DNA from: Candidatus Woesearchaeota archaeon
GTDB taxonomy: Archaea; Nanobdellota; Nanobdellia; Woesearchaeales; GW2011-AR9
DNA length: 64,000 nt
Direction: 5' to 3'
Assembly: GCA_018696595.1 (NCBI GenBank)
Contig: JABHQW010000003.1
Coordinates: forward strand, 1 to 64,000
The notes under the pieces are model-generated. The model saw only the letters and a list, made by a program, of their open reading frames with translations. It did not search any database and had not been told where the DNA came from. Shown here one piece after another: positions 1,695-50,028 of the stretch (positions within the stretch are counted from its first letter, which is position 1; each line of letters starts with the position of its first letter). The translations under genes and the position numbers were made by a program.

Positions 1695-1736
1695 ATTTAC
1701 TTCAGATTATGTGTTTTTTATAAAAGTTCTGAAAGA

Positions 1737-2081: not shown

Positions 2082-2158
2082 ATTTAGCTTATGGAGATTG
2101 ATTTATATAAAATTTTCTAACAAAAGTTATTTATAGCAATTACTATTTTTTAACAATT

Positions 2159-2485
2159 ATGGAAATACAAGATTTAAAAGATTTTTCAAAACGGATGCAC
2201 AAAAAGTTAGAAAGTTATTATGACTTTGATGACCCTAGGAAGTTAAATTTACCAATGACAGTAAAAATCATGGAAGAACTTGGCGAACTTTGTGATGATG
2301 TTTTAGCACATTCAGGATTACAAAGAAAAGAAAAGCTAGAAAACAAAGATATGGAAAACCTCCAAGAAGAGTTTGCTGACGTTATTCTAACAACCTGTAA
2401 CTTAGCTGAGAATATGGGTGTTGATATTGAAGAAGCTTTAAAGAAAAAAATTATGAAAGTTGATAATCGGTTTAAAGAACAATGA
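2159..2485 (+). CDS. MazG-like nucleotide pyrophosphohydrolase
   Basis: KIMEELGEL...LQEEFADV motifs. Confidence 0.85.
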   Translation: MEIQDLKDFSKRMHKKLESYYDFDDPRKLNLPMTVKIMEELGELCDDVLAHSGLQRKEKLENKDMENLQEEFADVILTTCNLAENMGVDIEEALKKKIMKVDNRFKEQ

Positions 2486-3165: not shown

Positions 3166-3458
3166 GAAAAGTATAATCCTTCAACCATTTTTCCTACTGC
3201 CTGAGCTGACATTGGTGAATAACATCGGAATTTTTGTAATCTTTCTTCCACCATTTCTGGGGTACATGCTTGCAAAGTGGTGTTGACTATTCCAGAACTT
3301 TCACTAATTTCAATTTCTGAATCTCTTAAAGATCCCCCTTTAATTATCAAATAAGGGGCTGCTAAAGTTGGTGGGTCATTCTTTTCTAATTTTCCCACGT
3401 GAATAGAACCTGGGACCATTGCCATTACTACTAATCCAACTAAAGAGTCATCTGCCAT
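3162..3458 (-). CDS. Hypothetical protein
   Basis: 98-aa ORF filling the gap between convergent genes; no motif. Confidence 0.5.
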   Translation of the reverse strand: MADDSLVGLVVMAMVPGSIHVGKLEKNDPPTLAAPYLIIKGGSLRDSEIEISESSGIVNTTLQACTPEMVEERLQKFRCYSPMSAQAVGKMVEGLYFS

Positions 3459-3511
3459 AATAATTTAGAATTAAATAAACTATATAAAAACTTGCAATCT
3501 CTAATATATAT

Positions 3512-3916
3512 TCAAAACAACTTATTTACAAAGAACAAGACAGTACTAGTTAACCCACAAATAAAACCACCCCAGATTATGTCCATAATTGTCATTACGA
3601 TTGGCCAATTATGTAATGTTGCTAAGTTAGTTAAATCATAAACTCCATAAACTATTAACCCAAAAATAGCTCCAAATATTGTTGCGTGCCACCATAAGTT
3701 TGCTTTAGGTAAAACAAAAATTAAGATCCCTAAAATAATCAAAGTCCATACCAATAAAGCGGAAATAATTGGTAAAGCTGTAACTGCTGCTTTTCTAGCT
3801 AAATCTCCTAATTGTGATTTATAGAATTTACCCATGATTCCAAAGATAAATATTGTGTCAATAGTTACCATAAATAAAAGCCCAGCAAAGAATAATTTTA
3901 TTTGGTTAACATCCAT
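3512..3916 (-). CDS. DUF2177-like membrane protein
   Basis: Four hydrophobic helices; YGVYDLTNLATLHNW...DIIWG signature. Confidence 0.75.
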   Translation of the reverse strand: MDVNQIKLFFAGLLFMVTIDTIFIFGIMGKFYKSQLGDLARKAAVTALPIISALLVWTLIILGILIFVLPKANLWWHATIFGAIFGLIVYGVYDLTNLATLHNWPIVMTIMDIIWGGFICGLTSTVLFFVNKLF

Positions 3917-4619: not shown

Positions 4620-6551
4620 ATGAAAAAGATAGAATTACTCTTACCAGCAGGGAACCAAGAAAACCTAACAGCAGCAGTAGAAAATGGTGCAGATGCAGTT
4701 TATTTAGGTATTGATAAATTCAATGCTAGAAGAAGAGCAGACAATTTTAAACTAGAAAATATCAAAGAAGTCATTGATTATTGCCATCAGAATGGAGTAA
4801 GATGTTATTGTACACTGAATATATTAATCAAGAATGAAGAAATAGAAGAATTCTTTGAAACTGTTAAAAAGTTATATCTTGCAGGAATGGATGCTGTTAT
4901 TATTCAACATATTTCTTTCTTACCAATTATCAAGAAAAACTTTCCGGGCTTGGAAGTGCATCTAAGTACACAAACTACAATTACAAATACTTATTTCTAT
5001 GATTTAATTAAAGAAGCAGATAAAGTTGTTTTGCCAAGAGAAGCTTCTAAAGATGAAATTAAAAATTTTATTAAAAAAATTAAGTTGCCAACAGAAATAT
5101 TTGTTCAAGGAGCTTTGTGTTTTTCTTATTCCGGTAAATGTTTGTTCTCTTCTTTCCTTGGTGGTCGTTCGGGCAATAGGGGGTTGTGTGCCCAACCTTG
5201 CAGAAAGAAATATAATGGCAAATATCTGTTAAGCATGAAAGATCTTTCTTTAGTTAAAGAATTGCCTAACTTAATTGAAATGGGTATTGCTTCATTAAAG
5301 ATTGAAGGCAGATTAAGAAGTGCTAAATATGTTGCTGCTTCTACTAAATTATATCGAGATGCAATTGATTCTTATTATGCTAAAAAGTTTAAGGTTGATA
5401 AAGATTTGTTTAAAGAAATGAAACTTGCTTTCAACCGAGAATTCACTTGGGGTTATTATGCTAATCTAAAAGATGTTGTTTCTCCTGAAAAACCAATGGG
5501 TCGCGGTCTTTATTTAGGTGAGATTGATCAACAGAAATTGATTAAGTTGGAAGAAGAAGTTTCTCTTGGAGATGGTTTAGGAATTTGGTTGCCAAACAAA
5601 GTTGACGGTGCAGTTCTTAGAAAGATGGAACTAGTTGATTCAAAGACTGGTGAGAAAAAGAAAGTTAATTTTGCTAAGAAAGGAGATTTAGTTAAGTTAG
5701 ATATTTTTGCTAAACCTGGAACGAAGATTTACAAAACTTCTTCTGTTGAGGAAGCAAAAGAAATTGAGTTTGTTAAAAATAAACCAATTGTTGTTAAAGG
5801 AAGGAAAGTTAAGGATATTGTTTTGCCTGATGTTAAAGAAATAAAGGGCCTTAGTACAAAAGAGGAATTATTAATTAAAGTTTATAATGTTAAAGACGGT
5901 AAAGAAGCTTTACGTTATACTGATAAAGTTTTTTATGACATTTTTGCTGAAGACTTTTCTAATAAGTTTTCTGCTTATGTTCCTCGAATCTTAAATGATC
6001 AGGATGTAGAGGAAGCAGTTAAGTTGATTGAGCAAGATAAAGTTAAAAATGTTTTAGTTGGCGATTTAGGTGTTTATGCTAAACTAAAAGGTAAAAAAGG
6101 ATTAAATATTTATCTTGATTATTCAAATAATATTTTCAATGATTTAGATTTAGAATTCTTTAATGGTTGTACTCCAATAATTTCTCCAGAACTATCTTCT
6201 GAGGAACTGAAAGAGTTTAGTACTAAAGGGTTTGCTGCTTTTGTGCACGGCAGAGTTGTAATGATGAACACTAAATACTCTTTACTTCCTAGCAAACTCA
6301 AAGACGAAAAGAAATATAGTTTCCCCGTAAGAAAGGAACATGATTATTATCAAATTCTTAATAGTAAAGAATTGGGATTATTTGAATTGGTTAATGATTT
6401 AAGAAAGATTGGAATCAAAAAATTCTTTTTAGATTTAGATGATGATGTTGATTATATGGCTAAGTTTTATTCTTCTTTATTGAAAGGAAAAGTTCTTCCT
6501 ATTAACATTCGTGGTTATACTAAAGGCCATTTTGATAAAGGAGTAGAGTGA
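4620..6551 (+). CDS. Peptidase U32 family protein (long form; probable RNA hydroxylation enzyme)
   Basis: ELLLPAG, GADAVYLG, FVQGALCFSYSGKC, NRGLCAQPCR, KIEGR motifs. Confidence 0.88.
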   Translation: MKKIELLLPAGNQENLTAAVENGADAVYLGIDKFNARRRADNFKLENIKEVIDYCHQNGVRCYCTLNILIKNEEIEEFFETVKKLYLAGMDAVIIQHISFLPIIKKNFPGLEVHLSTQTTITNTYFYDLIKEADKVVLPREASKDEIKNFIKKIKLPTEIFVQGALCFSYSGKCLFSSFLGGRSGNRGLCAQPCRKKYNGKYLLSMKDLSLVKELPNLIEMGIASLKIEGRLRSAKYVAASTKLYRDAIDSYYAKKFKVDKDLFKEMKLAFNREFTWGYYANLKDVVSPEKPMGRGLYLGEIDQQKLIKLEEEVSLGDGLGIWLPNKVDGAVLRKMELVDSKTGEKKKVNFAKKGDLVKLDIFAKPGTKIYKTSSVEEAKEIEFVKNKPIVVKGRKVKDIVLPDVKEIKGLSTKEELLIKVYNVKDGKEALRYTDKVFYDIFAEDFSNKFSAYVPRILNDQDVEEAVKLIEQDKVKNVLVGDLGVYAKLKGKKGLNIYLDYSNNIFNDLDLEFFNGCTPIISPELSSEELKEFSTKGFAAFVHGRVVMMNTKYSLLPSKLKDEKKYSFPVRKEHDYYQILNSKELGLFELVNDLRKIGIKKFFLDLDDDVDYMAKFYSSLLKGKVLPINIRGYTKGHFDKGVE

Positions 6552-13041: not shown

Positions 13042-14235
13042 TTAAGATCTTTCTTTAACTAAATAAACTTTATCATTTTCTCTTACTAAGAAATCTGTTT
13101 TAATTGTAATTAATGTTCCTTTCTCTGCTTTCTCAATCTTTCCAGAATGATCATGCATTTCAGAAACAACCATTTCTTCGCAACCAGTAGTTGGACCAAT
13201 GAAAGTAATTTTATCACCTACTTTAACTTTGTCACATTCAACTTTAAACTCTACAGCAGAAATGTTTTTGTAAAAATTACTCGCTTTACCAATCTGAACT
13301 TTTTTGGTTGTTGCTTTACTCCCATATAAATCAGCTCTTTGATGGTGGGGATAATCTATAAAGAATCCAGTTGAAAAATCTTTATTGTAAACTTGTTTAA
13401 GTTCCTCAGTTAATTCTGTTACTAATTCTTTGTTGAATTTGTTTTCTTTAATCGCTTCAACCGCTTTTCGGTAAACAGAAACTACTTTGGAAACATAATC
13501 TGCTCCTCGGTTTCTACCTTCAATCTTTAAACAATCAACAAAAGTAAGTTTGTCTAGTACTGGAAGTGCACATAAATCTTTGGCAGACATGACAAAGTTA
13601 TTATCCATAACCATTTCGTGTCCTTCTTCTTTATCAGTTACTTTGTATTCTCTTCTGCAAGGTTGTAAACATTCTCCTCTGTTGGCAGATTTGTTAAATA
13701 ACTCTTGTGACATAAAACATCTTCCTGAATAAGAAATACATCTTGCTCCGTGAATGAACACTTCTATTTCCATTCCAGTTTTCTCTTTTATTGTTTTAAC
13801 ATCTTCGATTGAACATTCTCTGGCAAGAACAATTCTTTCTACTCCTAATTCTTTCCAGTATAATGCCGCTTCTGAATTACTTACAGATGCTTGTGTGGAT
13901 AAATGGATTGGGATTCCTAATTCTTTACACTTCTTAACTACAGCTAGGTCCCAACAGATAACTGCATCAATATTAGCTTCTTTTAACGTTGTGAGAACTT
14001 TGTTTAATTGTTCTAACTCTGATTCGTAAATTATAATGTTAACTGTACAGTAAGCTTTAACATTATTCTCATGACAATATTCTACAATCTCTTTAACTTC
14101 GTCTAGTTCAAAGTTTCCTGCTGCTACACGCATGTTAAAATCTTTAATTCCAAAATAGATCGCATCTGCTTTAGCTTTAACAGCTGCGGTAAGCATGCTT
14201 CTATTTCCTACTGGTGCTAATATTTCCATTTTCAT
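13042..14235 (-). CDS. Peptidase U32 family protein (TrhP-like architecture)
   Basis: EILAPVG, ADAIYFG, FIHGARCISYSGRC, NRGECLQPCRR, KIEGR, C-terminal beta-barrel. Confidence 0.88.
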   Translation of the reverse strand: MKMEILAPVGNRSMLTAAVKAKADAIYFGIKDFNMRVAAGNFELDEVKEIVEYCHENNVKAYCTVNIIIYESELEQLNKVLTTLKEANIDAVICWDLAVVKKCKELGIPIHLSTQASVSNSEAALYWKELGVERIVLARECSIEDVKTIKEKTGMEIEVFIHGARCISYSGRCFMSQELFNKSANRGECLQPCRREYKVTDKEEGHEMVMDNNFVMSAKDLCALPVLDKLTFVDCLKIEGRNRGADYVSKVVSVYRKAVEAIKENKFNKELVTELTEELKQVYNKDFSTGFFIDYPHHQRADLYGSKATTKKVQIGKASNFYKNISAVEFKVECDKVKVGDKITFIGPTTGCEEMVVSEMHDHSGKIEKAEKGTLITIKTDFLVRENDKVYLVKERS

Positions 14236-37560: not shown

Positions 37561-38975
37561 TAAGAACAATTATTCAAATTGCTAAATCAGCTGGGGAAAT
37601 CATTGAACAAGAAAAAAAAAATAAACATGAGGTTATGCTTAAAGAAGATAACAGCGTAGTTACAACAGTAGATTTGAAAGTTAACAATTTTATTATTTCT
37701 GAACTAAAGAAGTATTTCCCTGATAAAGAAATAATCAGTGAGGAACTAATCAGTATACCTACAAAAGATTCTTTCTTTATTATTGATCCGTTGGATGGGA
37801 CACAGGAATTCTTGAATTGCATTGATGAACCAGAAAAGTACACCGAGTATGCTGTCCAGATTGCTTATGTGGAAGACGGTTGTCCCATAATGGGTGTTGT
37901 TTATCAACCCGCTATTGATAAATTATATTACGCTGTTAAAAACAAAGGTGCTTTTTTGCAACAAGGAACTAGTATTAAGAGAATTTTTACAAAACAATCT
38001 AATCGTGTTGTTGTGGGTAGATATAATATTGATGAGGATCTAATAAAAATATTAAGCTCGAAATTCTCAAAAACCCTTTCCGAAGTTAGTCAGGTAGGAA
38101 GTTTCGGAATAAAAGTATGCCAAGTTGCTGAAGGTAAGTACAATTCTTTTGTTCATACTAATTTTGATAATAATAAAATTCATGCTTCTTTATGGGACTC
38201 TTCTGCTCCAGACATTATTCTTCGCGAAGCAGGTGGAAGATCATTTGAGATGAAAACTTTAGTGCCCATAGATTATTCTTCTAATAAAATAAACCTTACT
38301 CAGGGGTATATTGCCACTTCAAATAAAAGTAAAGTCATAATTGTTTTTGATGTTGATGGGGTTTTAGGAAACTTTGAGATCCTTAAAGAAAAGAGAGATG
38401 TTGCCCATATTACTGCAGTAGCTAATAATAATCTGATTAGTTTCCAAGAGGCTAAAAAGCTATTTATTACCACTAGGGAAAAACTAAGGGCTGTAGATCA
38501 GTTTTCTACTATTGATACAATGTTTCATCTTGGTATTAGTAAAGAAGAATTTTATAATATAATGAATTCAGTACCTATTGAAGGAGGGATTAGTTGTAAT
38601 CCTAACGCTAAAACAATATTACAGTACTTATCCAAAAATTGTACTTTAGTTGCTTTAACAAATACTCCTTACTTAGCAAATATTGAAACTTTAGACTATT
38701 TAAGATTATTAGAATATTTTGATAAAGTATATTCTATCGATAAATATAATTTTATTAAACCATCAGTGGAAATATTCGAGAGAATAAAGATGGATTTTGG
38801 GGCTGAGCAAGGCTATTCTATTGGTGATAATGCCCATAAAGATTTACTTCCTGCTAAGGAAGCAGGATTTAAAACTATTTTATTTGGAGATAAAAAAAAA
38901 GTAAGTGGTGTTGACTATAAAATAGATGATTTGGCTAAATTAAAAGAAATAATTAATCTAAAAAATGACAATTGA
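37557..38975 (+). CDS. CysQ/inositol-monophosphatase domain fused to a HAD hydrolase
   Basis: SEE, IDPLDGTQEF, WDSSA in the N-terminal part; FDVDG, ALTN, KP, IGDNAHKD in the C-terminal part. Confidence 0.85.
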   Translation: MIRTIIQIAKSAGEIIEQEKKNKHEVMLKEDNSVVTTVDLKVNNFIISELKKYFPDKEIISEELISIPTKDSFFIIDPLDGTQEFLNCIDEPEKYTEYAVQIAYVEDGCPIMGVVYQPAIDKLYYAVKNKGAFLQQGTSIKRIFTKQSNRVVVGRYNIDEDLIKILSSKFSKTLSEVSQVGSFGIKVCQVAEGKYNSFVHTNFDNNKIHASLWDSSAPDIILREAGGRSFEMKTLVPIDYSSNKINLTQGYIATSNKSKVIIVFDVDGVLGNFEILKEKRDVAHITAVANNNLISFQEAKKLFITTREKLRAVDQFSTIDTMFHLGISKEEFYNIMNSVPIEGGISCNPNAKTILQYLSKNCTLVALTNTPYLANIETLDYLRLLEYFDKVYSIDKYNFIKPSVEIFERIKMDFGAEQGYSIGDNAHKDLLPAKEAGFKTILFGDKKKVSGVDYKIDDLAKLKEIINLKNDN

Positions 38976-41655
38976 TGATAAAATTGAAGAAGAGTACGAT
39001 GTAAGTAAAGAATGTGATCTTAAAAGTATAATTCCAGAAGTTGAAGAACATAAGAAGAAACTTTCTCAAGAGCAATTAGGGGAATTTAATTCTTTAGAAT
39101 CCAAATTAAAGCCATTGACCATTAATAATCCAGATCATGCTCATCCGGGCAACTCAGAAGCTTTAAGAAAAATGGGCAATATTTTTTATGAGAATGAAAT
39201 ATCTAATGATATTGCTTCTCAGTATTATCATCTTGCTTTTGAAGAATATTCTTCTGATGCGAGAATACTTTGTAATCTCGGAATTATTGCTAAAGAAAAA
39301 AATGACTATGAAAAAGCAAAAGAATATTTATGGAAATCTCTTAATTGGAATAAAAGTTTGTGGTTAGCTCATGATGCTCTTACTGATATTCTTAGTGATG
39401 AAAATGATACAACTGGAATGGTCACTTGGATCAATAAATTTATTAATTCTGTTGGAGGTAAGGGGAGTATAATTCAACTAGCGGGGATGGTAGAAGATTC
39501 AGATTATGAAGAAGATAATATTCTTTATCAATCATATGACGCATTAGAGGTTCTTGTTTCTGCAGATTATGGTGAAAGATTTGATGGTTACGATGTTTGC
39601 AAATTAATCCTTTCGGGGATAAATCCTCAACTTGCTAGTCAATATAATGGTCGTTTTGGTGCTTTGGATATTGTTAATTTACATAAAGCAGATTGTTCTC
39701 CAGAAAAAGCTAACACTTACGACGTTCGTTTTGGAGGCTTAGATATTGCACATCTAAAAATGGCAAGAGTAAAGAATGAAGAAGCAATTATTTATCCTGA
39801 ACATTTTGATGGTAGTTGTATATCTGCTTTAGTTCATGAGAATATTTCTCCAGAAGTTGCTGGTTCATATGGCGAGCCTTTAATGCCAACATACTTGAAT
39901 AAAGGATATTCTGGAACAAGCATTACCTGTTTTGTAAAATATGGTCTTAATGATAAAGATGTTAAAGATTATGGTGAACTTCCAAGTTCGGTAATTTGTT
40001 TATTGGTTGAAAATGGAATCTCAGCTGAACAATATAGACCTTATGGAGAAAAATTTGTAGATACAGAAAAGTGGCATAAAGTAGATTGGAAATCTTTAAT
40101 AAAATTGATTAATCGTGCTAAAAACTATGAAGAGATTGCTGAATATGATTCTTCTTTGGGTCTTGATGATATTATTCAACTAAATTACAATTCAATATCC
40201 TCTTCACTTGCTAACCAATATCACGGATTTAACGGTTCACAGATTTCTCGTTTAGTTGAATACAAGATTGAACCAGAAAAGATTCCTGAATATTCAGAAC
40301 GATTTGATAAAGAGGATATATCGTGGTTAGCTAGTTTTAATGTTTCTTCAGAATTTGCAGAAAAATTTGATCCAAGGTTTAAAGGTAATGATATTATCAA
40401 TTTAAAAGATGTGTATTCGCCAGAGATCACTCAATACAATGCTAAAATTCCTGCTATTATAATTAGGGCATTAATTAAAAATAATGTTTCACCTGAAAAA
40501 GCTGAGGAATATTTGAAACATTGGAACGAGTGGGAATTAATTGGGGTTTTTGATGTTCCTTTTGATATTGCTCGTAAATATAAAGAAAATAATGGTTTGC
40601 ACATTGGAAAAATGTATCGAAGCGGAATTATGCCTGAAGAAGCAAACAAATTTGATGATCGTTTTAGATCTGATGGTATTGTAGATTGTATTGAAGCAAA
40701 AGTTAGTCCAGAAATAGCTAATAGTTATCATGGGCGTTTTGATGAATATGGTGTTAGGCAATTAGTTGAGTTTAATTGTGATCCAAAGATTGCTAATACT
40801 TACGATGAGAGATTAAATGCTGAAGCTATTTTATTATTATCTAGCGTTGGTATTTTCCCAGGAATATTTAGTGAGAATTCTGAGATTTATTACAGTCTTT
40901 TAAAAGATATCACTCACTTTGAAGAAGATGATACTGATGATGATCAAGATAGTAATCTTTTAGGTGTTGGTTCACAAGGGATTGTGATTCTAAAGAATGA
41001 AAGTGCTTGGAAGTTTAGTCAGGATATTGATTATGAATATTCATTACTTAAAATGCTGGAGAATCCTAAGAATGTTATAGGGATAAAAAATAAACCAAAA
41101 AAAAGAGTTGCCTTGGAATTAGAATATGTTTCGGGCGACTCACTAAAAACGATTATGGGGAAAAAACTATTATCATTAGATAAAACATACCATTACTCAT
41201 TGGAAATATTTAACGGTCTTCAAGAACTTCGTCAAGCTGGGATTTATCAGCATCGTGATATTCGTCCAGCAAATATTATGGTTGACGAAGAAAAAGAAAG
41301 AGCAATAATAATTGATTTAGGAATTGCTACAACAGACCCATTAGATTTACCTAAAGATAACCGTAGATATGGCGGTCCAAACGATTTAGTTTCTCTTGGA
41401 CAAGTGATGTATAAAATGGCTACTGGCGAACATATTTTTGCTGAATCTGAATCTATGGAAAGAACTATTTACGCAGACAAGTTAAAAGATCATCGTGATT
41501 GGATTTACGAGGAAGATAAGAGATTAGGACCATATCTTAGAATAGTTAATGAAACTGTTACAGATGATAAAGTGGCAGATTTAATAAAATTATGTCTGAC
41601 GGCAAAAGGTACAGAAGAAGATTATCAGAGATTAGAAGAGAGATTTGCAACATAA
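38965..41655 (+). CDS. TPR + tandem-repeat protein with C-terminal Ser/Thr kinase
   Basis: TPR-like helices, ~25-aa repeats, LGVGSQG, HRDIRPAN, IDLG. Confidence 0.8.
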   Translation: MTIDDKIEEEYDVSKECDLKSIIPEVEEHKKKLSQEQLGEFNSLESKLKPLTINNPDHAHPGNSEALRKMGNIFYENEISNDIASQYYHLAFEEYSSDARILCNLGIIAKEKNDYEKAKEYLWKSLNWNKSLWLAHDALTDILSDENDTTGMVTWINKFINSVGGKGSIIQLAGMVEDSDYEEDNILYQSYDALEVLVSADYGERFDGYDVCKLILSGINPQLASQYNGRFGALDIVNLHKADCSPEKANTYDVRFGGLDIAHLKMARVKNEEAIIYPEHFDGSCISALVHENISPEVAGSYGEPLMPTYLNKGYSGTSITCFVKYGLNDKDVKDYGELPSSVICLLVENGISAEQYRPYGEKFVDTEKWHKVDWKSLIKLINRAKNYEEIAEYDSSLGLDDIIQLNYNSISSSLANQYHGFNGSQISRLVEYKIEPEKIPEYSERFDKEDISWLASFNVSSEFAEKFDPRFKGNDIINLKDVYSPEITQYNAKIPAIIIRALIKNNVSPEKAEEYLKHWNEWELIGVFDVPFDIARKYKENNGLHIGKMYRSGIMPEEANKFDDRFRSDGIVDCIEAKVSPEIANSYHGRFDEYGVRQLVEFNCDPKIANTYDERLNAEAILLLSSVGIFPGIFSENSEIYYSLLKDITHFEEDDTDDDQDSNLLGVGSQGIVILKNESAWKFSQDIDYEYSLLKMLENPKNVIGIKNKPKKRVALELEYVSGDSLKTIMGKKLLSLDKTYHYSLEIFNGLQELRQAGIYQHRDIRPANIMVDEEKERAIIIDLGIATTDPLDLPKDNRRYGGPNDLVSLGQVMYKMATGEHIFAESESMERTIYADKLKDHRDWIYEEDKRLGPYLRIVNETVTDDKVADLIKLCLTAKGTEEDYQRLEERFAT
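39568..40860 (+). repeat. Protein-level ~25-aa tandem repeat array (YxxRFxxxDIxxLxxxxxSPExA)
   Basis: e.g. YGERFDGYDVCKLILSGINPQLASQ / YNGRFGALDIVNLHKADCSPEKANT / FDDRFRSDGIVDCIEAKVSPEIANS. Confidence 0.7.
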
Positions 41656-43395
41656 AAATGAAACTAGAAAGAATACTTGCGGAAACAGAACTGGCAAGAG
41701 ATTATCGAAGAATAATTAGATCGAATGATTTCTTAGGGGATAAAATAAAAGAAGCAGTTCAGAAAATTAGGGGTATTCATCAAGTTAAACGTTATTTAGG
41801 ACATGTTGATTTATTATCAAAAAAGTGGAGTGCTTATTTAGATGATCCTCCTGTTAATTATGGGATCGCTTTTGCTCATTATGCTTGGTTTAGTATGGAT
41901 TTGCCTTTTTACACTAGGGCTTTTTCTAAAGTAGAAGAAGAGTTTTCAGATGTCATTTCAGATATAATCCTTCAAGTGAATAAGAAAACTAATCATCTTT
42001 CTAAATTAGCTTACGTTTTTGAAACGCCGTATAATAAAAATTGGGGTAATACTTTGCCATATAAAAAACAACGTCAACAATACTTTTCTCTTCTACATAA
42101 ACTACAAGCTGTTGATCCAGATGTTATTGCCGATGCACATTATCTTCTTTCTTGTTTAATAAAGAATCAAGAAAAAGAATATCCTTTAGAAAAAATAGTG
42201 TCAAATATTTGTGAACTGGACAAATTGGGTGATGACCCCCATCTGAATTCATCCTCTGTCCAAGGGATGCCAGAAACTGTTAGATCACTTGCACAAACAT
42301 ATATTGAAGGTCTAAATTTTTTGGCAGGGCCAACATATATTAAAGAATTTGAAGAAGATTTAAATTTAAAAGACATACTTAATGACGATACAGTTGATTT
42401 ACATTTTGAAAAAGTAATCGCTTTTGCTAAAAAATGTGACTCTGTTTGTAATCAACGAAATCAATTAACAAACAACATAGATTATCTTGAATCTGTAGAA
42501 TATAAAGAGATAGATTCAAAAGCTGATAAGTACAATGGAATTGTTGGTGCTTTTGCAATGGGCCTTCCAATAATACAACAATTAAATCCAAGTGCCGTTG
42601 ATGATTATGTCCATACTGCTTCTGAAATGATAATTCGTGCTGTTGATATTAACAAAGTGGAATTAGCATTCAAAAGTTTAATTACCCATATGGGAGGTTA
42701 TAAATTAATATCTACGGGTATACGTTCAATTGTTGTTTTTTCTGGTGATTCTATCAGTAAGTTTTCATCAGACATCTCATATGAAGCAGAATTACATCAT
42801 AAATTAGAAAATCCAATAAATGTTGTTTCGGCAGTAAAAGAAAGCAATACTGAAATAACTTTAGAATTAAAATATATTCATGGTCACTCACTTGAAGAAT
42901 TAATGGATATTAATCAATTATCTTTAGATTTAATAAAGAAATATTCTTCAGGTATTTTCAACGGTCTTCAAGAACTTCGCCAAGTAGGGATTTATCAGCA
43001 TCGTGATATTCGTCCAGCAAATATTATGGTTGACGAAGAAAAAGAAAGAGCAATAATAATTGATTTAGGAATTGCTACAACAGACCCATTAGACCCCCCT
43101 AAAGATAACCGCAGATATGGCGGCCCAAACGATTTAGTTTCTCTCGGACAAGTGATGTATAAGATGGCTACTGGCGAACATATTTTTGCTGAATCTGAAT
43201 CTATGGAAAGAACGATTTACGCAGACGAGTTAAAAGATCATCGTGATTGGATTTATGGGGGAGATGAAAGGTTAGATCCATATCTTAGAATAGTTAATGA
43301 AACTGTTACAGATGATAAAGTGGCAGATTTAATAAAATTATGTCTGACGGCAAAAGGTACAGAAGAAGATTATCAGAGATTAGAGGAGAGGTTTG
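41212..43395 (+). repeat. Near-identical 436-bp kinase module in two adjacent genes (41212-41647 and 42960-43395)
   Basis: Manual alignment without gaps, roughly two dozen mismatches. Confidence 0.92.
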
Positions 43396-43409
43396 AAAAT
43401 ATTGTTTGA
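41658..43409 (+). CDS. Ser/Thr kinase-domain protein with unrelated N-terminal domain
   Basis: HRDIRPAN, IDLG; degenerate Gly loop; start moved to ATG 41658. Confidence 0.8.
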   Translation: MKLERILAETELARDYRRIIRSNDFLGDKIKEAVQKIRGIHQVKRYLGHVDLLSKKWSAYLDDPPVNYGIAFAHYAWFSMDLPFYTRAFSKVEEEFSDVISDIILQVNKKTNHLSKLAYVFETPYNKNWGNTLPYKKQRQQYFSLLHKLQAVDPDVIADAHYLLSCLIKNQEKEYPLEKIVSNICELDKLGDDPHLNSSSVQGMPETVRSLAQTYIEGLNFLAGPTYIKEFEEDLNLKDILNDDTVDLHFEKVIAFAKKCDSVCNQRNQLTNNIDYLESVEYKEIDSKADKYNGIVGAFAMGLPIIQQLNPSAVDDYVHTASEMIIRAVDINKVELAFKSLITHMGGYKLISTGIRSIVVFSGDSISKFSSDISYEAELHHKLENPINVVSAVKESNTEITLELKYIHGHSLEELMDINQLSLDLIKKYSSGIFNGLQELRQVGIYQHRDIRPANIMVDEEKERAIIIDLGIATTDPLDPPKDNRRYGGPNDLVSLGQVMYKMATGEHIFAESESMERTIYADELKDHRDWIYGGDERLDPYLRIVNETVTDDKVADLIKLCLTAKGTEEDYQRLEERFENIV

Positions 43410-44513: not shown

Positions 44514-44936
44514 ATGAAAAAACATATGGTTGAAAAAGATGGGATTTATGGTGCATTAATTATGGCTGCAAAGAACCCTAATACAGATTCTTCAAAGAAT
44601 CTAGCAAAAGCGGGATTGAACTTTCAGTATAAGAAAAATCAAATCATGGAACAATATGTAATACCTGTTAATGGTGGGATATATCAAGTTCAAGTATTAG
44701 ATTTCTTAGGTGATCAATATGGACTTGAAGGAGTAATGGCTATGGGTGTAAATACTAATGGGGATGAAATGAACAATGTGTTGGATTTTCTCTTAACTAC
44801 AGCAGGGATTGTACCTTTAGATCAAGAAGTATTTAATGGCAATCCATTAAAAGAAAAATACACTGAAGTACTTGAAAAAATGGTTACTGATTATGCAAAT
44901 ACTTTGGTAATTAATACACCAGACACAGTGAATTAA
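44514..44936 (+). CDS. Hypothetical protein
   Basis: GGAGG RBS; abuts the Lrp gene. Confidence 0.65.
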   Translation: MKKHMVEKDGIYGALIMAAKNPNTDSSKNLAKAGLNFQYKKNQIMEQYVIPVNGGIYQVQVLDFLGDQYGLEGVMAMGVNTNGDEMNNVLDFLLTTAGIVPLDQEVFNGNPLKEKYTEVLEKMVTDYANTLVINTPDTVN

Positions 44937-44937
44937 A

Positions 44938-45375
44938 ATGAATCCAAAAACCTTACAACTCTTGATGCATTTAAGAGAGAACTCTAGAGAGAAGCTTACA
45001 AGTATTAGTAAAAAAACTAATATCCCGATCTCTACCCTCTTTGATCTGTTGAAAGAGTTGCAGGGGGGTTTAATTCTCAAAAGTACTGTTTTATTAGATT
45101 ATTCTAAGTTGGGTTATCATGCTAGAGCAAAAGTGTTTCTGAAAGTAAGTAATGAGAATAAAGAGAAATTAAAAAACCACTTGAACTTAAATCCCAATGT
45201 GAACACAATTTACAAAATTAATAATGGGTGGAGTTTTTTAATTGAAACTGTACATAAGAATATTAAAGAATTAGATATTTTTCTGGAGAAGTTAGAAGAT
45301 AATTATAATATTGAAAACAAACAAATTCATTATTTAATTGATGAAGTTAAAAGAGAAGGTTTTGTGGTTGATTGA
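44938..45375 (+). CDS. Lrp/AsnC family regulator
   Basis: LRENSREKLTSISKKTNIPISTLFD HTH; LLDYSKLGY linker. Confidence 0.8.
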   Translation: MNPKTLQLLMHLRENSREKLTSISKKTNIPISTLFDLLKELQGGLILKSTVLLDYSKLGYHARAKVFLKVSNENKEKLKNHLNLNPNVNTIYKINNGWSFLIETVHKNIKELDIFLEKLEDNYNIENKQIHYLIDEVKREGFVVD

Positions 45376-45384
45376 ATATTAAAT

Positions 45385-46593
45385 TCATTTAATCTCTTTA
45401 TATCCTAAAACCTGGTTTTCTTTATCTCTTAATTCAACATATTTTTCTGGTTCTCTAGCTATGTCATACCAGAATCTTACTCTGCTGAATCCGTTCTTTG
45501 CTTTTCCATTACATCTAATTACGCCCATTCCAGCCCAAGGAACTGGCTGTGTTTTTTTGTTTACCAAATGAATCCCTAATTGTCCACTTTTTGGATGAAC
45601 TGTTCCTCTTAGATGTTCAGAAAAATACTTCTCCAAAACCTTTAATTCTCTAAGTGTATAATTTAAAGCTAAGTATCCTACAGTAAAGTCTTCAATATTT
45701 TGATCTATAACTTCTCTTCTTTCATCTTTACTTATGTTTTCCCCATATACTAAATCATGAAAATAATCAAACTCTTCTTGAGTTGATTCTCCATGAACTG
45801 GAACAAAGTTATTGCCAACAAGTGTGTCTAAATTTAGATTTCTTTTTGAATTTCTAGCCAACTCACAAACTTCTGGTTTTTTTCTTATGGTTTCCCATGA
45901 TGCATGAAGATTACTCAAATGCTTTTTATAACAATCATCCCACTGACTTTTAAATGGAGATACTAGATCCTCTATAATATCATATACTTTAATTGGTGCC
46001 TTTAGGTGTTTTATAATTTCCTTTAATTCATCACGATAATTTCTTGCACAACTTTTATCAACACCAAATAAATCAGAATATAGTATCCCATCACTTGCAA
46101 TTATTATTTCTACTCCTGGTTCATAAACTCTTTGTATAGAATCAGAAATTCCCGATAATTGGGTCACTGAAGCAATCTCAGCTAAACCCGCAATTCTTGA
46201 ATTGTTCCGTAAAGGATTTGGTAACTTAAATGGAAATGAAGGGATAATAATTTTTATAGGTTCATTAGATGAGATTGAATTATTAAAATTATTGATGAAA
46301 TATTCTTTGCTTTCAGTTAAATTACATGCAGGGCCATTTCTAATCCTCTGATTTAAAAATATGGAAAGAATCTTTTCAGCTAAGTTTCCATTGTATTTAC
46401 GTGCATTATTTCCTATTGATTCATAAATACATTTATGTAATTCCTTCCATTCTGAATAATCAAAATTTTCAATTTGTTTTATCTCAATCTCTTTTTTCTC
46501 AGATAGCTTGCCTAATGATTTTCTAAAAAAGAATTCTGGTTCAGCGACTGTACTCATTATTACTCTTTCATCAAATTGTTTTGCTAATGTCAT
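45385..46593 (-). CDS. PvcA/Dit1-family isocyanide (isonitrile) synthase homologue
   Basis: IPSFPFKLPN, LAE, VYEPGVEIIIASDGILYSDLFGV, LRGTVHPKSGQLG, PW motifs match the remembered family pattern. Confidence 0.8.
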   Translation of the reverse strand: MTLAKQFDERVIMSTVAEPEFFFRKSLGKLSEKKEIEIKQIENFDYSEWKELHKCIYESIGNNARKYNGNLAEKILSIFLNQRIRNGPACNLTESKEYFINNFNNSISSNEPIKIIIPSFPFKLPNPLRNNSRIAGLAEIASVTQLSGISDSIQRVYEPGVEIIIASDGILYSDLFGVDKSCARNYRDELKEIIKHLKAPIKVYDIIEDLVSPFKSQWDDCYKKHLSNLHASWETIRKKPEVCELARNSKRNLNLDTLVGNNFVPVHGESTQEEFDYFHDLVYGENISKDERREVIDQNIEDFTVGYLALNYTLRELKVLEKYFSEHLRGTVHPKSGQLGIHLVNKKTQPVPWAGMGVIRCNGKAKNGFSRVRFWYDIAREPEKYVELRDKENQVLGYKEIK

Positions 46594-46624
46594 GAGTATT
46601 AATTTGATGACAATATAAAAGTGT

Positions 46625-46720
46625 ATTTCTACAGAAAAACCGTAATATTTCCGAGCGATTTAAATGGATATAAGAAGAATAACATTCTATTCGTAAATTA
46701 TCCGAGAAGTCTGTAGAAAT
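46625..46720. promoter_or_regulatory. Symmetric divergent promoter with two palindromic boxes and an 11-bp inverted repeat
   Basis: ATTTCTACAGA (46625-46635)/TCTGTAGAAAT (46710-46720); boxes at 46641-46653 and 46692-46704. Confidence 0.6.
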
Positions 46721-46751
46721 GTTTATTAAATGATTAGAATATTAATGTTAT

Positions 46752-47738
46752 ATGAAAGCGTATCAACTAATAAAATATGGGCCTTCCAAGGAAGCATTTA
46801 AAACAATTGATGTAAAGACTCCAGAGATCAATGATGATGAACTTCTTGTTAAAGTTAAAGCAGCAGGAATTAATCCTGTTGATATTAAGATGAGATTAGG
46901 AATGATTCCTTCACTTGATCTACCAACTATTTTGGGTTATGATTTCTCAGGTGTTGTGGAGAAAGTTGGCAAGAATGTTACTCGGTTTAAGATTGGTGAT
47001 GAGGTATATTCAGCTGGTGCTAATCCTCATGATAAAGGAGGATCTTATGCAGAATACACTGCAGTAAATGAAAGATTAGCTGCAATAAAACCAAAGAATA
47101 TTACTTTTGTAGAAGCTGCTTCAATTCCTCTCGTGGGAATTACTGCTTATGAAGCTATATTCGAAAAACTAAATCTTCAAGAAAAAGAAGATATACTCAT
47201 TCATGGCGGTACTGGTGGTGTTGGATCAATTGCAATTCAATTAGCAAAACTTAAAGGGGCAGAAGTTTACTCAACCATCAGTTCACTTAGGAAAAAGAAG
47301 ATTGTTGAATCTTTGGGGGCCATTAGTATTGACTACACCGAAGAATGTTTTGTAAGGTATGCAAAGAATCTTCCAGGGAGTGGTTTTACAAAAATATTTG
47401 ATACTGTTGGTGGTAAAGTTTTCCAAGAAAGTTTGGGAGCACTTAAGCCCTATGGTCAAATAGCTTCAATTTTAAATGTTTTTGATGAAAGTTTAGATTT
47501 AAGTAGTGCAATGATTAATAATGCTTCTATACATTTTACAATGATGCTTTTACCTCTTAGATTGGGATTATATGATCAAATGAAAAAACAAGGGGTCATA
47601 CTTGAGAATTTATGTCATTTAATTGAATCTGGAAAAATAGTTCCAAGAGTAGAAAAAGTATTTTCAGATATGATTAAAGCTCATAATCATGCAGAAAAAG
47701 GTGGATTAGAAGGAAAACTAGTTGTTGAGTTTAATTAA
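46752..47738 (+). CDS. NADPH:quinone reductase / MDR-family oxidoreductase
   Basis: GINPVD, LGYDFSG, ILIHGGTGGVG, GKLVV motifs. Confidence 0.88.
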   Translation: MKAYQLIKYGPSKEAFKTIDVKTPEINDDELLVKVKAAGINPVDIKMRLGMIPSLDLPTILGYDFSGVVEKVGKNVTRFKIGDEVYSAGANPHDKGGSYAEYTAVNERLAAIKPKNITFVEAASIPLVGITAYEAIFEKLNLQEKEDILIHGGTGGVGSIAIQLAKLKGAEVYSTISSLRKKKIVESLGAISIDYTEECFVRYAKNLPGSGFTKIFDTVGGKVFQESLGALKPYGQIASILNVFDESLDLSSAMINNASIHFTMMLLPLRLGLYDQMKKQGVILENLCHLIESGKIVPRVEKVFSDMIKAHNHAEKGGLEGKLVVEFN

Positions 47739-47776
47739 TATTTAACACCATTTTATATACTTATCAAACTAAAACC

Positions 47777-48334
47777 ATGAAAATGACATACATATCTTTT
47801 AAAGAGAGAGAAACTAAAAATAATTATGCTGCCGATGAAGTTATTTCTGCATTACAAAAAGAAATTCGTCGTGGTAATCTAGAATCTGCATGTTTCTTTG
47901 GATTAGAATTGTTGGAATCTGGTTTGGAATTTGAAACCAAGTTTTGGGAAAGAATACTAGTGATTTCTGTTGAAGATATTGACGACGATAATAAAATACC
48001 ACTCATTAGATCATTAAAAGAAAATTACTTTGATTTAGTAAACTCAAAAAATTGGGACAAACATATGCAAGCAATTCAAGCTATAAAGATTCTGTGTGAA
48101 GCTAAGAAGGGCAGGATTATTAGTGAATTATATGATGTACTACAATTAAGGAAAAAAGATGGCTGGAAAGTTAAGGTACCAGATTATGCACTTGACAAAC
48201 ATACTAAGAAAGGAAAAGAAATGGGTAGAAGTTATAACCATTTCTTTGTTGAAGCTGCAAAAATAATTAATGTAAATAAAGTTGAAGATTTTAGATATCT
48301 AAATGAACTAAAAAAATATTATAAAATTAATTAA
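47777..48334 (+). CDS. Stand-alone MgsA/RarA C-terminal-like helical protein
   Basis: ISALQKEIRRG, VISVEDI, PDYALDKHT..G motifs; no Walker A. Confidence 0.55.
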   Translation: MKMTYISFKERETKNNYAADEVISALQKEIRRGNLESACFFGLELLESGLEFETKFWERILVISVEDIDDDNKIPLIRSLKENYFDLVNSKNWDKHMQAIQAIKILCEAKKGRIISELYDVLQLRKKDGWKVKVPDYALDKHTKKGKEMGRSYNHFFVEAAKIINVNKVEDFRYLNELKKYYKIN

Positions 48335-49434
48335 AATTTTTTCTTAAATTCTCTTAAAACTAATTCCGATAACAAAACATTTGAATCAACACTATCTTTA
48401 ATTTCATCTTCTTTCATTAAACTAACTCTAGGTGCCCCTTCAGGTGCACGAATTAAAATAATATCACTTTCAGGAAATCTTTTACTAGCAAGTCTTGCAG
48501 TAGCTAATGATTTGCCATCATCATAGTATTTTTTAGGTAGATAAATTGTTTTACTTTTTGAAAATGATGTTAATGATAGACTGGGAGCATCCAAATTAGT
48601 TGGGCTTCCAGATAAATCAAAACTATTTTCGCCAACTAATATTATATTTGGTGATCTTGTTGAAATAAATGTTGGTTCAATTATATCAATCTCAATATCA
48701 TCTTGACCAACACGCGGCATTTTATTTAATAAATAGTTCTGCCAAAAAGATTTCACGCATTCACGAACATTAGTTGTACCTTTTAGCTTTCTTATTTCTG
48801 CTGTTTTTTCTTCACCTAAATCCCATTCTCTAGAATCATATGTTGAGCAATTAGATTCACTCCAATCTTTAATAAAAGTAGCAAAAGTCACATAATCACT
48901 TAATCGGGGAACTCTCGTAATATCCCATCCTTCTAATACTCTTGTACACTCAGTTAAAGTTCTTGGCGTGCTAAAATATTTGACGCCTTCTGCATCTAAC
49001 TTTTCGAACAATTTCTTTTCATGATAAACTTCAATTAATGAAACTCTTCCAAAAGTGTCAACAATTTCTTTATTTTCTTCAAATGCAGTTCCATCTAAAA
49101 CGCTGGCTTTTAATTGCATGAAAGAATAATACATTGGAATACTTAATGCACCTGCGCCTTTATTCAGATACCAGACATCAGGCATTCTTAATCCAATATC
49201 CTCATCATCTTCTGGACAAAGTTCATCTTGGTGTACTTGATAGCCTTCTTCAGATAATAGGTCTGCAAGAATATCTGTGTTTAATCCACCATAAGTTAAT
49301 ATTGGTAATTTAGAAGTTGTTTCTAAATCGAGATTATTATGTGAATTATTTAAATCACAAACATAAATTCTTGATTCGATCTTTCTAATATTTAATGGGT
49401 TTCTTATTTTTTGTTTTAAGTTTGTTTCGTACAT
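48331..49434 (-). CDS. Hypothetical protein
   Basis: 367-aa ORF; no recognised motif. Confidence 0.65.
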   Translation of the reverse strand: MYETNLKQKIRNPLNIRKIESRIYVCDLNNSHNNLDLETTSKLPILTYGGLNTDILADLLSEEGYQVHQDELCPEDDEDIGLRMPDVWYLNKGAGALSIPMYYSFMQLKASVLDGTAFEENKEIVDTFGRVSLIEVYHEKKLFEKLDAEGVKYFSTPRTLTECTRVLEGWDITRVPRLSDYVTFATFIKDWSESNCSTYDSREWDLGEEKTAEIRKLKGTTNVRECVKSFWQNYLLNKMPRVGQDDIEIDIIEPTFISTRSPNIILVGENSFDLSGSPTNLDAPSLSLTSFSKSKTIYLPKKYYDDGKSLATARLASKRFPESDIILIRAPEGAPRVSLMKEDEIKDSVDSNVLLSELVLREFKKKF

Positions 49435-49593
49435 AAGTAACTATAAATGATTCTTTTAAATTACTCTTTCCCCAAAAATCCCGTAACAATTCCGCACGTT
49501 TTCCGACGACATATAAAGAAAACAATGTTTCTCGGAAACTTTCCGGAACTTTAATAACAACGCTTTTTAAAAAGAAAATTAACATTTTCTAAA

Positions 49594-50028
49594 ATGAAAG
49601 AAAAAGAGCGGTTAATAATTTCACACTTAAGAAAAGATGCACGTTCTAGTTTAGCTTCAATTTCTTTTGATATTAAAATGCCCATTTCTACAATCTATGA
49701 TAAGATTAACCGTTTTCAAAAAGACAAGACTATCAGAAAACAGGTTGCACTAATAGATTTCAGAAAGTTAGGTTATCATCATCATACAAAATTAGCTTTA
49801 CAAGTTCCTCGTTTACAGAAACAATCCTTACAAGAATTCTTAACTAACCATTCAGCAATTAATTCTATTCATGAAATTAATAGTGATTATGATTTTATGG
49901 TTGAAACAGTGCATAAAGACATTAAAGAATATTTAGATTTTATTGAAACTTTAAATGAATCTTTTGACATTACGAATAAACAAGAATTTCAAATCATTAA
50001 TGATCTTGCAAGAGAAAAGTTTGTTTAA
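49594..50028 (+). CDS. Lrp/AsnC family regulator
   Basis: LRKDARSSLASIS...PISTIYD HTH; IDFRKLGY; paralogue of 44938-45375. Confidence 0.8.
   Translation: MKEKERLIISHLRKDARSSLASISFDIKMPISTIYDKINRFQKDKTIRKQVALIDFRKLGYHHHTKLALQVPRLQKQSLQEFLTNHSAINSIHEINSDYDFMVETVHKDIKEYLDFIETLNESFDITNKQEFQIINDLAREKFV

What the first reader, a model, noticed from the sequence alone, without database searches (positions are those of the whole stretch)
45385..47738. Isocyanide-synthase (PvcA/Dit1) homologue in a reduced archaeal genome, divergently paired with an oxidoreductase
Seen: ORF 45385-46593 carries the PvcA/Dit1 pattern (PSFPFKLPN, AE, YEPGVEIIIASDG, TVHPK, PW). Known: characterised members convert an amino acid amine into an isocyanide using ribulose-5-phosphate, and are described from bacteria and fungi (paerucumarin, rhabduscin, xanthocillin, metal-binding isocyanides). 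Inferred: a DPANN-type archaeon with little biosynthesis would not be expected to carry a specialised-metabolite enzyme. No TauD/PvcB dioxygenase or NRPS is in the window. Instead it shares a symmetric promoter with an MDR reductase and sits between two Lrp paralogues, which suggests a minimal, possibly undescribed archaeal isocyanide pathway for metal scavenging or antagonism.
Basis: partly seen in the sequence, partly recalled or inferred. Interest (0 to 1): 0.85.

Follow-up and report, generated by a model that had tools for sequence, protein, structure and literature searches.

The report
Archaeal isonitrile-synthase-like enzyme with reductase partner
A tiny marine archaeon carries a real but divergent relative of the bacterial and fungal enzymes that make isonitrile groups, in a small conserved module with an amino-acid-type regulator and a reductase instead of the usual oxygenase; its product is unknown.

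Summary
ORF 45385-46593 (-) is an intact 402-aa member of Pfam DIT1_PvcA (96 bits, cut-off 26.4). Its confident AlphaFold model matches PvcA and PIsnA. The contig also carries an archaeal 16S gene, in a 1.19-Mb, 97%-complete marine genome.

It is not a PvcA orthologue (64 bits against a 600-bit cut-off). It belongs to a small archaeal clade under purifying selection. It keeps nearly all family-wide conserved residues, but a 95%-conserved Asp is Gly (G136).

No TauD/PvcB dioxygenase was found in the genome. The gene instead sits in a conserved module:
- an Lrp-type regulator;
- the synthase-like gene;
- a reductase, which is a quinone/enone-type MDR in three lineages and a nitroreductase in two.

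The promoter is mirror-symmetric, and its rare operator box is also found in the relatives' intergenic regions. The module is accessory: not found in 60 genomes of the same family or in a same-genus genome.

The claim that this family is unexpected in such organisms is weakened. Relatives occur sporadically in this archaeal phylum and in Patescibacteria, and this scan has noted similar genes before on other DNA.

Chemistry, substrate and the reductase's role remain untested. I rate it a new variant of a known kind, of moderate interest.

The parts
45385..46593 (-). 402-aa isonitrile-synthase-family (DIT1_PvcA) protein, archaeal long-form clade; Gly at the position of a 95%-conserved Asp (G136)
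   Evidence: PF05141 at 96.4 bits. PDB sequence hits PIsnA and PvcA at about 5e-12. AF2 model pLDDT 93.7; Foldseek top hit PvcA 3e59, E 1.4e-14, TM 0.78 normalised by the target. Residue conservation. dN/dS 0.14-0.25.
46594..46751 (.). 158-bp divergent, mirror-symmetric promoter region shared by the synthase-like gene and the MDR gene
   Evidence: Both arms read CG box, 6 nt, CTGTAGAAAT, 31 nt, ATG. Inverted repeat and direct repeat.
46641..46653 (.). CG box 1 (CGTAATATTTCCG), candidate operator on the synthase side
   Evidence: Pattern CGKAA-N3-WTSCG gives 6 matches in the window against 0.05 expected. Ten matches, at eight sites, to a slightly looser form of the pattern in the whole 1.19-Mb genome. 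Related boxes lie in the intergenic regions of L004/L005 and L007/L008.
46692..46704 (.). CG box 2 (CGTAAATTATCCG), candidate operator on the MDR side
46625..46634 (-). BRE-like element CTGTAGAAAT of the synthase promoter, followed by a TATA-like TTTTATATT at 46612-46620
   Evidence: Read from the sequence. Promoter function is inferred, not shown.
46711..46720 (+). BRE-like element CTGTAGAAAT of the MDR promoter, followed by a TATA-like TTTATTAAA at 46722-46730
   Evidence: Read from the sequence. Promoter function is inferred.
46752..47738 (+). 328-aa quinone/enone-oxidoreductase-type MDR reductase, partner of the synthase-like gene
   Evidence: ADH_N, ADH_zinc_N and ADH_zinc_N_2 domains. 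Best NCBIfam matches are adh_fam_1 and quinone_pig3, both below cut-off. Nearest PDB sequences are Fragaria enone oxidoreductase 4ida and quinone oxidoreductases. A 57%-identical orthologue sits in the same divergent position in L006 and an MDR gene likewise in L037.
44938..45375 (+). 145-aa Lrp/AsnC-like regulator, convergent with the synthase-like gene; conserved member of the module
   Evidence: Weak Pfam and NCBIfam Lrp hits. 65% identical to the regulator beside the homologue in L006 and 48% to that in L004, which carries recorded HTH_24 and AsnC_trans_reg hits.
49594..50028 (+). 144-aa Lrp/AsnC-like paralogue with two CG boxes upstream (49482-49494, 49533-49545)
   Evidence: 39% identical to the first regulator. 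CG boxes.

Best explanation
The gene encodes a functional, stand-alone enzyme of the IsnA/PvcA/Dit1 family. Most likely it condenses the alpha-amino group of a salvaged amino acid with the C2 keto group of ribulose 5-phosphate, giving an alpha-isocyano acid or its hydrated N-formyl form. It is transcribed from a mirror-symmetric divergent promoter together with an NAD(P)H-dependent quinone/enone-type reductase. Both promoters carry a rare operator box placed just upstream of the BRE/TATA elements, probably bound by the adjacent amino-acid-sensing Lrp-type regulator. The reductase takes the place that the Fe/2-oxoglutarate dioxygenase (IsnB/PvcB) holds in classical pathways. It either tailors the product or removes reactive carbonyl or enone by-products left from the sugar-phosphate skeleton. 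Shown here: family membership, fold, selection, conserved gene linkage and promoter symmetry. Inferred: substrates, product, regulator-operator pairing and the reductase's role.
For: Family and fold: PF05141 at 96 bits; PDB sequence hits to PIsnA and PvcA; AF2 pLDDT 93.7 and Foldseek top hits PvcA/PIsnA with TM 0.70-0.78 normalised by the target. Family-wide conserved K123, E139, G160, D168, G169, Y186, Y307, R329, T331, K335, P352 and G355 are kept, and so is the H333 of the HP(K/Q) motif. Purifying selection: dN/dS 0.14-0.25, and 0.20 in an unsaturated pair with dS 0.55. Partner: a divergent MDR gene in the window, L006-8 and L037, with 57% identity between the window and L006 copies; a nitroreductase in the same divergent position in L004/5 and directly downstream in L011/12. 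That is 4 of 6 clade lineages beside one of two unrelated reductase folds. Regulator conserved at 65% and 48% identity. Symmetric promoter and rare CG box, also found in relatives. Co-substrate: ribulose-phosphate 3-epimerase is present. No chorismate synthase was found, so aromatic amino acids would have to be imported. Bacterial relatives at about 30% identity sit with MFS exporters and DJ-1/PfpI proteins, the family of isonitrile hydratase by general knowledge, and without TauD. The IsnA-family reaction is stated in PMC12946266.
Against: It scores only 64 bits against the PvcA equivalog model, whose cut-off is 600. The whole long-form branch has no characterised member that I could place. 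Asp136, conserved in 95% of 151 family sequences, is Gly here and in the four nearest lineages. Its role could not be checked because the PIsnA structure paper is not held. No exporter, hydratase or other tailoring gene lies in the module in this window. Two of six clade lineages show no adjacent MDR or nitroreductase. No known isonitrile pathway that I am aware of uses an MDR or nitroreductase partner. In Patescibacteria, family members sit in housekeeping contexts beside Trp/Tyr-tRNA ligase, which hints at non-secondary-metabolite roles.
Confidence: 0.5

Rival explanations
1. Same fold, different chemistry. The enzyme forms only the amino-acid/keto-sugar-phosphate imine or a rearranged adduct, and the partner reductase reduces it. 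This would yield an N-alkylated, opine-like amino acid or another non-isonitrile product.
For: A 95%-conserved Asp is lost in this subclade, and P0008/P0009 vary at E139 and P0009 at H333. A reductase rather than an oxygenase is the conserved partner, and two unrelated reductase folds are interchangeable. The branch is distant from characterised enzymes.
Against: All other family-wide conserved positions are retained. No precedent is known to me for MDR or nitroreductase enzymes reducing such imines. Two clade lineages have no adjacent MDR or nitroreductase.
Confidence: 0.22
2. The enzyme serves amino-acid handling or salvage (primary metabolism) in a host-dependent archaeon rather than making a bioactive metabolite. 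It would be switched by Lrp in response to amino-acid supply.
For: It is linked to Lrp/AsnC regulators. In the same-genus genome the syntenic Lrp-flanked slot holds amino-acid enzymes: a PLP decarboxylase, a TyrRS with a C-terminal S4 domain, an aminotransferase and an M20 peptidase. A Patescibacteria tandem pair lies upstream of a Trp/Tyr-tRNA ligase, and the G357 copy lies beside PheRS. An earlier scan note makes the same suggestion, unchecked here.
Against: The module is accessory. It was not found in 60 family genomes or in the same-genus genome and was over the cut-off in only 3 of 401 genomes of the phylum. That fits a dispensable trait better than core metabolism. No concrete salvage reaction is known for this fold.
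Confidence: 0.13
3. The synthase-like enzyme works alone, and the reductase is only a syntenic neighbour sharing regulation, for example a general quinone or electrophile detoxifier, with no role in the pathway.
For: The MDR-paired lineages are close relatives (58-79% identity) with wider shared synteny involving kinases and an AbrB-like gene. The pairing could therefore be inherited rather than selected. P0005 and P0009 lack an adjacent MDR or nitroreductase.
Against: An unrelated reductase fold (nitroreductase) occupies the same divergent position in the closest relative, which is 63% identical, and the downstream position in a 41%-identical one. The MDR orthologue is missing wherever the synthase is missing in the family. 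The two promoters are mirror copies.
Confidence: 0.15
4. The gene is an inactive relic of a horizontally acquired gene.
For: Loss of the conserved Asp136 and patchy distribution.
Against: Full-length open frames in at least six diverged lineages, dN/dS about 0.2, 58 invariant columns across the clade, a confident compact model, and a dedicated promoter.
Confidence: 0.03

Closest known systems
IsnA / PvcA / PIsnA isonitrile synthases (Pfam PF05141; PDB 3E59, 9DH4, 9DHM)
   Same: Same Pfam family and same fold. It shares the FPxK, (D)xAE, PG...SDG, R-x-(T/S)-x-HP and PW-G motifs.
   Different: About 19-20% identity over the Foldseek structural alignments. About 70-100 extra N-terminal residues. 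64 bits against the 600-bit PvcA equivalog cut-off. Gly replaces the conserved Asp of the D-x-A-E motif. No IsnB/PvcB dioxygenase anywhere in the genome. The host is archaeal.
Long-form bacterial 'L-tyrosine/L-tryptophan isonitrile synthase family' proteins, e.g. Priestia megaterium WP_310876672.1 and a Gammaproteobacteria MAG protein MDR3478924.1
   Same: Same length class, with the shared N-terminal extension and the TVHPKxGQ motif; 30-32% identity. They also lack a TauD partner.
   Different: The bacterial genes sit with MFS exporters, ATP-grasp, HAD, aminotransferase, methyltransferase and DJ-1/PfpI genes, not with Lrp plus a reductase. They keep the Asp. None of them is characterised as far as I could find.
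Fungal Dit1 / ICS proteins (Dit1-Dit2, XanB, CrmA)
   Same: Same Pfam family. Stand-alone or differently partnered ICS enzymes show that the dioxygenase is not obligatory (PMC5974471).
   Different: Fungal partners are a P450, a fused dioxygenase or NRPS-like domains. That survey lists bacteria and eukaryotes only and does not mention archaea.
Quinone/enone oxidoreductases of the MDR superfamily (e.g. Fragaria enone oxidoreductase 4IDA, E. coli QOR 1QOR)
   Same: The partner protein has the same domain pair and its best sequence matches are to these enzymes.
   Different: It is below every NCBIfam subfamily cut-off. Its substrate is unknown. I know of no link between this enzyme class and isonitrile pathways.

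Membership tests
DIT1_PvcA / IsnA-family isonitrile synthase (PF05141) | Significant match to the family HMM above the curated cut-off | tested here: met
   96.4 bits against 26.4, E 2.7e-27, profile positions 4-255 of 273; 95.8 bits in the genome scan.
DIT1_PvcA / IsnA-family isonitrile synthase (PF05141) | PvcA/PIsnA three-dimensional fold | tested here: met
   AF2 model pLDDT 93.7, pTM 0.93. The Foldseek top eight hits are all PvcA or PIsnA chains, E 1.4e-14 to 8e-13, TM 0.70-0.78 normalised by the target; the next hit is at E 0.016.
DIT1_PvcA / IsnA-family isonitrile synthase (PF05141) | Family-wide conserved (presumed catalytic or binding) residues | tested here: inconclusive
   Of the columns conserved in at least 75% of 151 sequences, K123, E139, G160, D168, G169, Y186, Y307, R329, T331, K335, P352 and G355 are kept. 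Asp136 (95% conserved) is Gly, and two lesser positions differ. The roles of these residues in the solved structures could not be read because the paper is not held.
DIT1_PvcA / IsnA-family isonitrile synthase (PF05141) | Catalysis: amino acid plus ribulose 5-phosphate gives an isonitrile | not testable with these tools
   Needs an enzyme assay. Indirect support only: ribulose-phosphate 3-epimerase is present in the genome.
PvcA orthologue (NCBIfam NF045653, L-tyrosine isonitrile synthase equivalog) | Score at or above the equivalog cut-off (600 bits) | tested here: not met
   64.3 bits, covering only residues 103-207.
Canonical IsnA-IsnB / PvcA-PvcB two-gene pathway | Adjacent Fe(II)/2-oxoglutarate dioxygenase (PF02668) | tested here: not met
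   No PF02668 match in the 97%-complete genome, while the E. coli control rings. None is listed beside the clade's relatives.
MDR superfamily, quinone/enone oxidoreductase type (partner gene) | ADH_N plus ADH_zinc_N domains above cut-off | tested here: met
   72.7, 55.5 and 53.8 bits, all over their cut-offs. The nearest NCBIfam subfamilies, adh_fam_1 and quinone_pig3, are below their cut-offs.
Lrp/AsnC transcription regulators (flanking genes) | Winged-helix domain plus AsnC-type ligand-binding domain | tested here: inconclusive
   The Pfam hits are just below cut-off (21.8 and 21.7 bits against 25). NCBIfam Lrp similarity is E 1e-8 to 2e-12 over the full length. The protein is 48% identical to an L004 protein with recorded HTH_24 and AsnC_trans_reg hits.

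The most novel reading that the evidence does not exclude
Marine DPANN-type archaea use a previously undescribed, oxygenase-free three-gene module: an Lrp sensor, a divergent isonitrile-synthase-fold enzyme and an interchangeable ene/quinone-type reductase. With it they turn an imported amino acid and ribulose 5-phosphate into a new kind of small molecule, either a reduced or otherwise tailored isonitrile or an N-alkyl 'opine-like' amino acid. This molecule would act in metal capture or in the interaction with the host cell. The Asp-to-Gly change would mark the altered chemistry.
Probability: 0.2. Interest if true: 0.8.

Novelty: new variant of a known kind. Interest (0 to 1): 0.5.

Why it matters
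According to the literature read here, isonitrile biosynthesis is known by only two routes (PMC12946266). In the 2018 survey read here, IsnA-family proteins are listed only for bacteria and some eukaryotes (PMC5974471). Here a selected, regulated family member sits in a host-dependent marine archaeon with almost no biosynthesis of its own. Its partner is a reductase rather than the usual oxygenase. If active, it would be a one- or two-enzyme way for an ultra-small cell to make a reactive, metal-binding metabolite from scavenged precursors. That would give a concrete handle on how such archaea interact with hosts or metals. The swap between two reductase folds and the conserved operator make the module directly testable by heterologous expression.

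Tried and rejected
- The genome-contig scan with the single protein found no relative. Alignments A1 and A2 were too diverse for the pattern search. Alignment A3 found only two distant actinobacterial relatives.
- The viral-contig scan found no relative, so I saw no virus link for this clade.
- The metagenome scan added one informative new lineage, L037; the rest were distant or short and were not annotated further.
- No RNA holder was listed by the look-up of sequencing runs.
- The PIsnA structure paper and the PvcA structure paper are not held. No residue-level active-site assignment was therefore possible.
- I first took the 140-aa ORF 44514-44936 to be the counterpart of the 140-aa gene in L004. 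That was rejected: the L004 gene is a second Lrp paralogue.
- The 185-aa ORF after the MDR gene is unrelated to the kinase-like gene that follows the synthase in L006.
- RpiA and an HPS-type OMPdecase-family protein were not found in the genome. Only the epimerase supports a ribulose 5-phosphate supply.
- The genome's DJ-1/PfpI gene lies far away on contig C3 and is not informative.
- I have no named, characterised sequences in the tree. The placement relative to PvcA/IsnA/Dit1 rests on HMM scores and on one canonical-type archaeal sequence (L019).
Full report
**Observation.** It matches Pfam DIT1_PvcA (PF05141) at 96.4 bits against a 26.4-bit cut-off, over profile positions 4-255 of 273. By sequence alone it finds the solved isonitrile synthases PIsnA (9DHM, 9DH4) and PvcA (3E59) at E about 5e-12. 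The plus-strand ORF 46752-47738 is an MDR oxidoreductase. The two flanking 144-145-aa genes are Lrp/AsnC-like and 39% identical to each other.

**Host.**
- The window is the start of a 312-kb contig in a 1.19-Mb, 8-contig genome estimated 97% complete.
- The same contig carries an archaeal SSU rRNA gene at 1407 bits.
- The window encodes a GINS51 homologue and a DNA-primase small-subunit (PriS-type) protein.
- Relatives in the same order have genomes of 0.6-1.9 Mb.
- No chorismate synthase was found.
- The stretch is held almost word for word in marine and seawater metagenomes from at least 14 studies.

'DPANN-type, reduced archaeon' is therefore a fair description, although I cannot name the taxon.

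**Family placement.**
- An AlphaFold2 model built on 103 homologues is confident (pLDDT 93.7, pTM 0.93).
- Its only significant PDB matches are PvcA and PIsnA, with E 1.4e-14 to 8e-13 and TM 0.70-0.78 normalised by the target.
- It is not a PvcA orthologue: 64 bits against NCBIfam's 600-bit equivalog cut-off.
- A search of 1.8 billion representatives found 1027 family members, but only 10 below E 1e-30.
- In a tree of 151 sequences the protein falls in a six-lineage clade (P0001, P0002, P0003, P0005, P0008, P0009; SH-aLRT 97).
- One contig of this clade also carries ribosomal protein S3Ae, which is archaeal or eukaryotic.
- The clade belongs to the 'long' forms, with an N-terminal extension and a TVHPKxGQ motif. 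It is far from a canonical 309-aa PvcA-type protein found in another archaeon of the same order (G357, 203 bits).

**Residues and selection.**
- Across 151 family sequences the strongly conserved positions K123, E139, G160, D168, G169, Y186, Y307, R329, T331, K335, P352 and G355 are all retained. The His of the HP(K/Q) motif (H333) is retained as well.
- The exception is the Asp of the D-x-A-E motif, conserved in 95% of sequences. It is Gly in this protein and in its four nearest lineages.
- I could not determine what that Asp does, because the structure papers are not held.
- The gene is under purifying selection: dN/dS is 0.14-0.25, and 0.20 for a pair with unsaturated dS of 0.55.

**Module.** Neighbourhoods of the clade's lineages:

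| Lineage | Identity to the window protein | Reductase context |
|---|---|---|
| Window (P0001) | – | Divergent MDR |
| P0003 (L006-8) | 58% | Divergent MDR; MDR proteins 57% identical |
| L037 | 59% | Divergent MDR |
| P0002 (L004/5) | 63% | Unrelated nitroreductase in the same divergent position |
| P0008 (L011/12) | 41% | Nitroreductase directly downstream on the same strand |
| P0005 | 43% | No adjacent MDR or nitroreductase |
| P0009 | 33% | No adjacent MDR or nitroreductase; a pyridine-nucleotide-disulfide flavoprotein lies two genes away |

- The genome has only two other nitroreductase genes.
- No MDR orthologue was found in 60 genomes of the same family.
- Repeated adjacency to one of two reductase folds is therefore unlikely to be chance. 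This is my inference, not a formal test.
- The adjacent Lrp-like regulator is also conserved, at 65% identity in L006 and 48% in L004.

**Promoter.**
- The 158-bp spacer is mirror-symmetric. Each arm reads 13-nt CG box, 6 nt, CTGTAGAAAT, 31 nt, ATG, with an A/T-rich TATA-like run after the purine-rich element.
- The CG box (CGKAA-N3-WTSCG) has 6 matches in the window against 0.05 expected. A slightly looser form of the pattern gives only 10 matches, at eight sites, in the whole genome.
- Two copies lie here, two lie upstream of the second Lrp gene, and one lies before a protein-kinase gene with the same downstream layout.
- Related boxes occur in the intergenic regions beside the homologues in L004/5 and L007/8.
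- An operator just upstream of BRE/TATA is the position used by archaeal Lrp-type activators. This rests on general knowledge, and binding was not tested.

**Accessory nature.**
- PF05141 exceeded its cut-off in 2 of 201 genomes sampled from the order and 3 of 401 from the phylum, counting this genome.
- Neither the synthase-like gene nor the MDR was found in a same-genus genome that is 84% complete.
- In that genome the flanking Lrp genes and distal genes are syntenic. The slot between them holds a PLP decarboxylase, a TyrRS with a C-terminal S4 domain, a methyltransferase, an IMPase-family protein, an MR/MLE enzyme, an M20 peptidase, a GNAT and an aminotransferase.
- The module therefore sits in a variable, Lrp-flanked slot that carries amino-acid-modifying cargo.

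**Substrates and missing partners.**
- No TauD/PvcB-type dioxygenase was found in the genome.
- Ribulose-phosphate 3-epimerase is present, so ribulose 5-phosphate is a plausible metabolite. RpiA was not found.
- Bacterial relatives at about 30% identity also lack TauD. They sit with MFS exporters, HAD, ATP-grasp and DJ-1/PfpI genes, which is compatible with small-molecule production and self-protection.

**How unexpected is it?**
A Patescibacteria genome has a tandem PF05141 pair upstream of a Trp/Tyr-tRNA ligase.
- A 985-kb 'MAG: archaeon' contig carries a member that NCBI already names an isonitrile-synthase family protein.
- G357 carries a canonical-type copy beside PheRS.
- This scan has noted PvcA-like genes in ultra-small bacteria and archaea several times on other DNA.
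- On the other hand, the 2018 family survey lists only bacteria and eukaryotes (PMC5974471). A 2026 paper still describes IsnA enzymes as acting on L-Tyr/L-Trp with ribulose 5-phosphate (PMC12946266).

**Verdict.** This is a genuine, selected, regulated and divergent isonitrile-synthase-family enzyme in a marine reduced archaeon. It is linked to an Lrp regulator and an interchangeable reductase instead of a dioxygenase. Isonitrile or N-formyl chemistry on an imported amino acid is the most likely function, at about 0.5. Altered chemistry coupled to the reductase is the main rival. Nothing about the product or its ecological role is shown.

Noticed in passing
L070 (G502:C41:6500-24000), syntenic with window 44936-50028: In a same-genus genome the slot between the two conserved Lrp genes lacks the synthase and MDR. 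Instead it holds a PLP-dependent decarboxylase, a TyrRS with a C-terminal S4 domain, a methyltransferase, an IMPase-family protein, an MR/MLE enzyme, an M20 peptidase, a GNAT and a class I/II aminotransferase. It is a variable slot filled with amino-acid-modifying genes.
   Followed up: partly
window 34278-43409: Three large proteins with C-terminal eukaryotic-type protein-kinase domains (34337-36763, 38965-41655, 41592-43409). The first follows a CG box and the same BRE/TATA layout as the synthase and MDR promoters. Similar kinases flank the module in L037.
   Followed up: partly
L026/L027 5811-9230: A Patescibacteria genome carries two tandem PF05141 paralogues (385 and 384 aa) directly upstream of a class Ib (Trp/Tyr) tRNA ligase, among housekeeping genes. 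This matches an earlier scan note.
   Followed up: no
L019 (G357:C53) 1390-3766: Another archaeon of the same order has a canonical short (309 aa, 203 bits) PvcA-type gene immediately upstream of the PheRS alpha subunit.
   Followed up: no
L006 4755-5441; L037 7232-7885: In the P0003-like lineages a 217-228-aa protein with weak P-loop / dTMP-kinase-like similarity follows the synthase-like gene, overlapping its 3' end in L006. It is 82% identical between the two contigs and is absent from the window.
   Followed up: partly
L002 (G076:C15) 1168-2169; P0009 locus: A 333-aa protein at the edge of PF05141 detection (27 bits) occurs in another genome of the order. A 333-aa gene without any Pfam hit overlaps the start of the P0009 homologue. 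This may be a very divergent paralogue pair.
   Followed up: no
window 47777-49434: Two ORFs between the MDR gene and the second Lrp gene (185 aa on the plus strand, 367 aa on the minus strand) have no Pfam or NCBIfam match and no counterpart beside the homologues.
   Followed up: partly
window 4620-6551 and 13042-14235: Two peptidase-U32-family genes (248 and 256 bits) lie within 9 kb of each other in a small genome.
   Followed up: no
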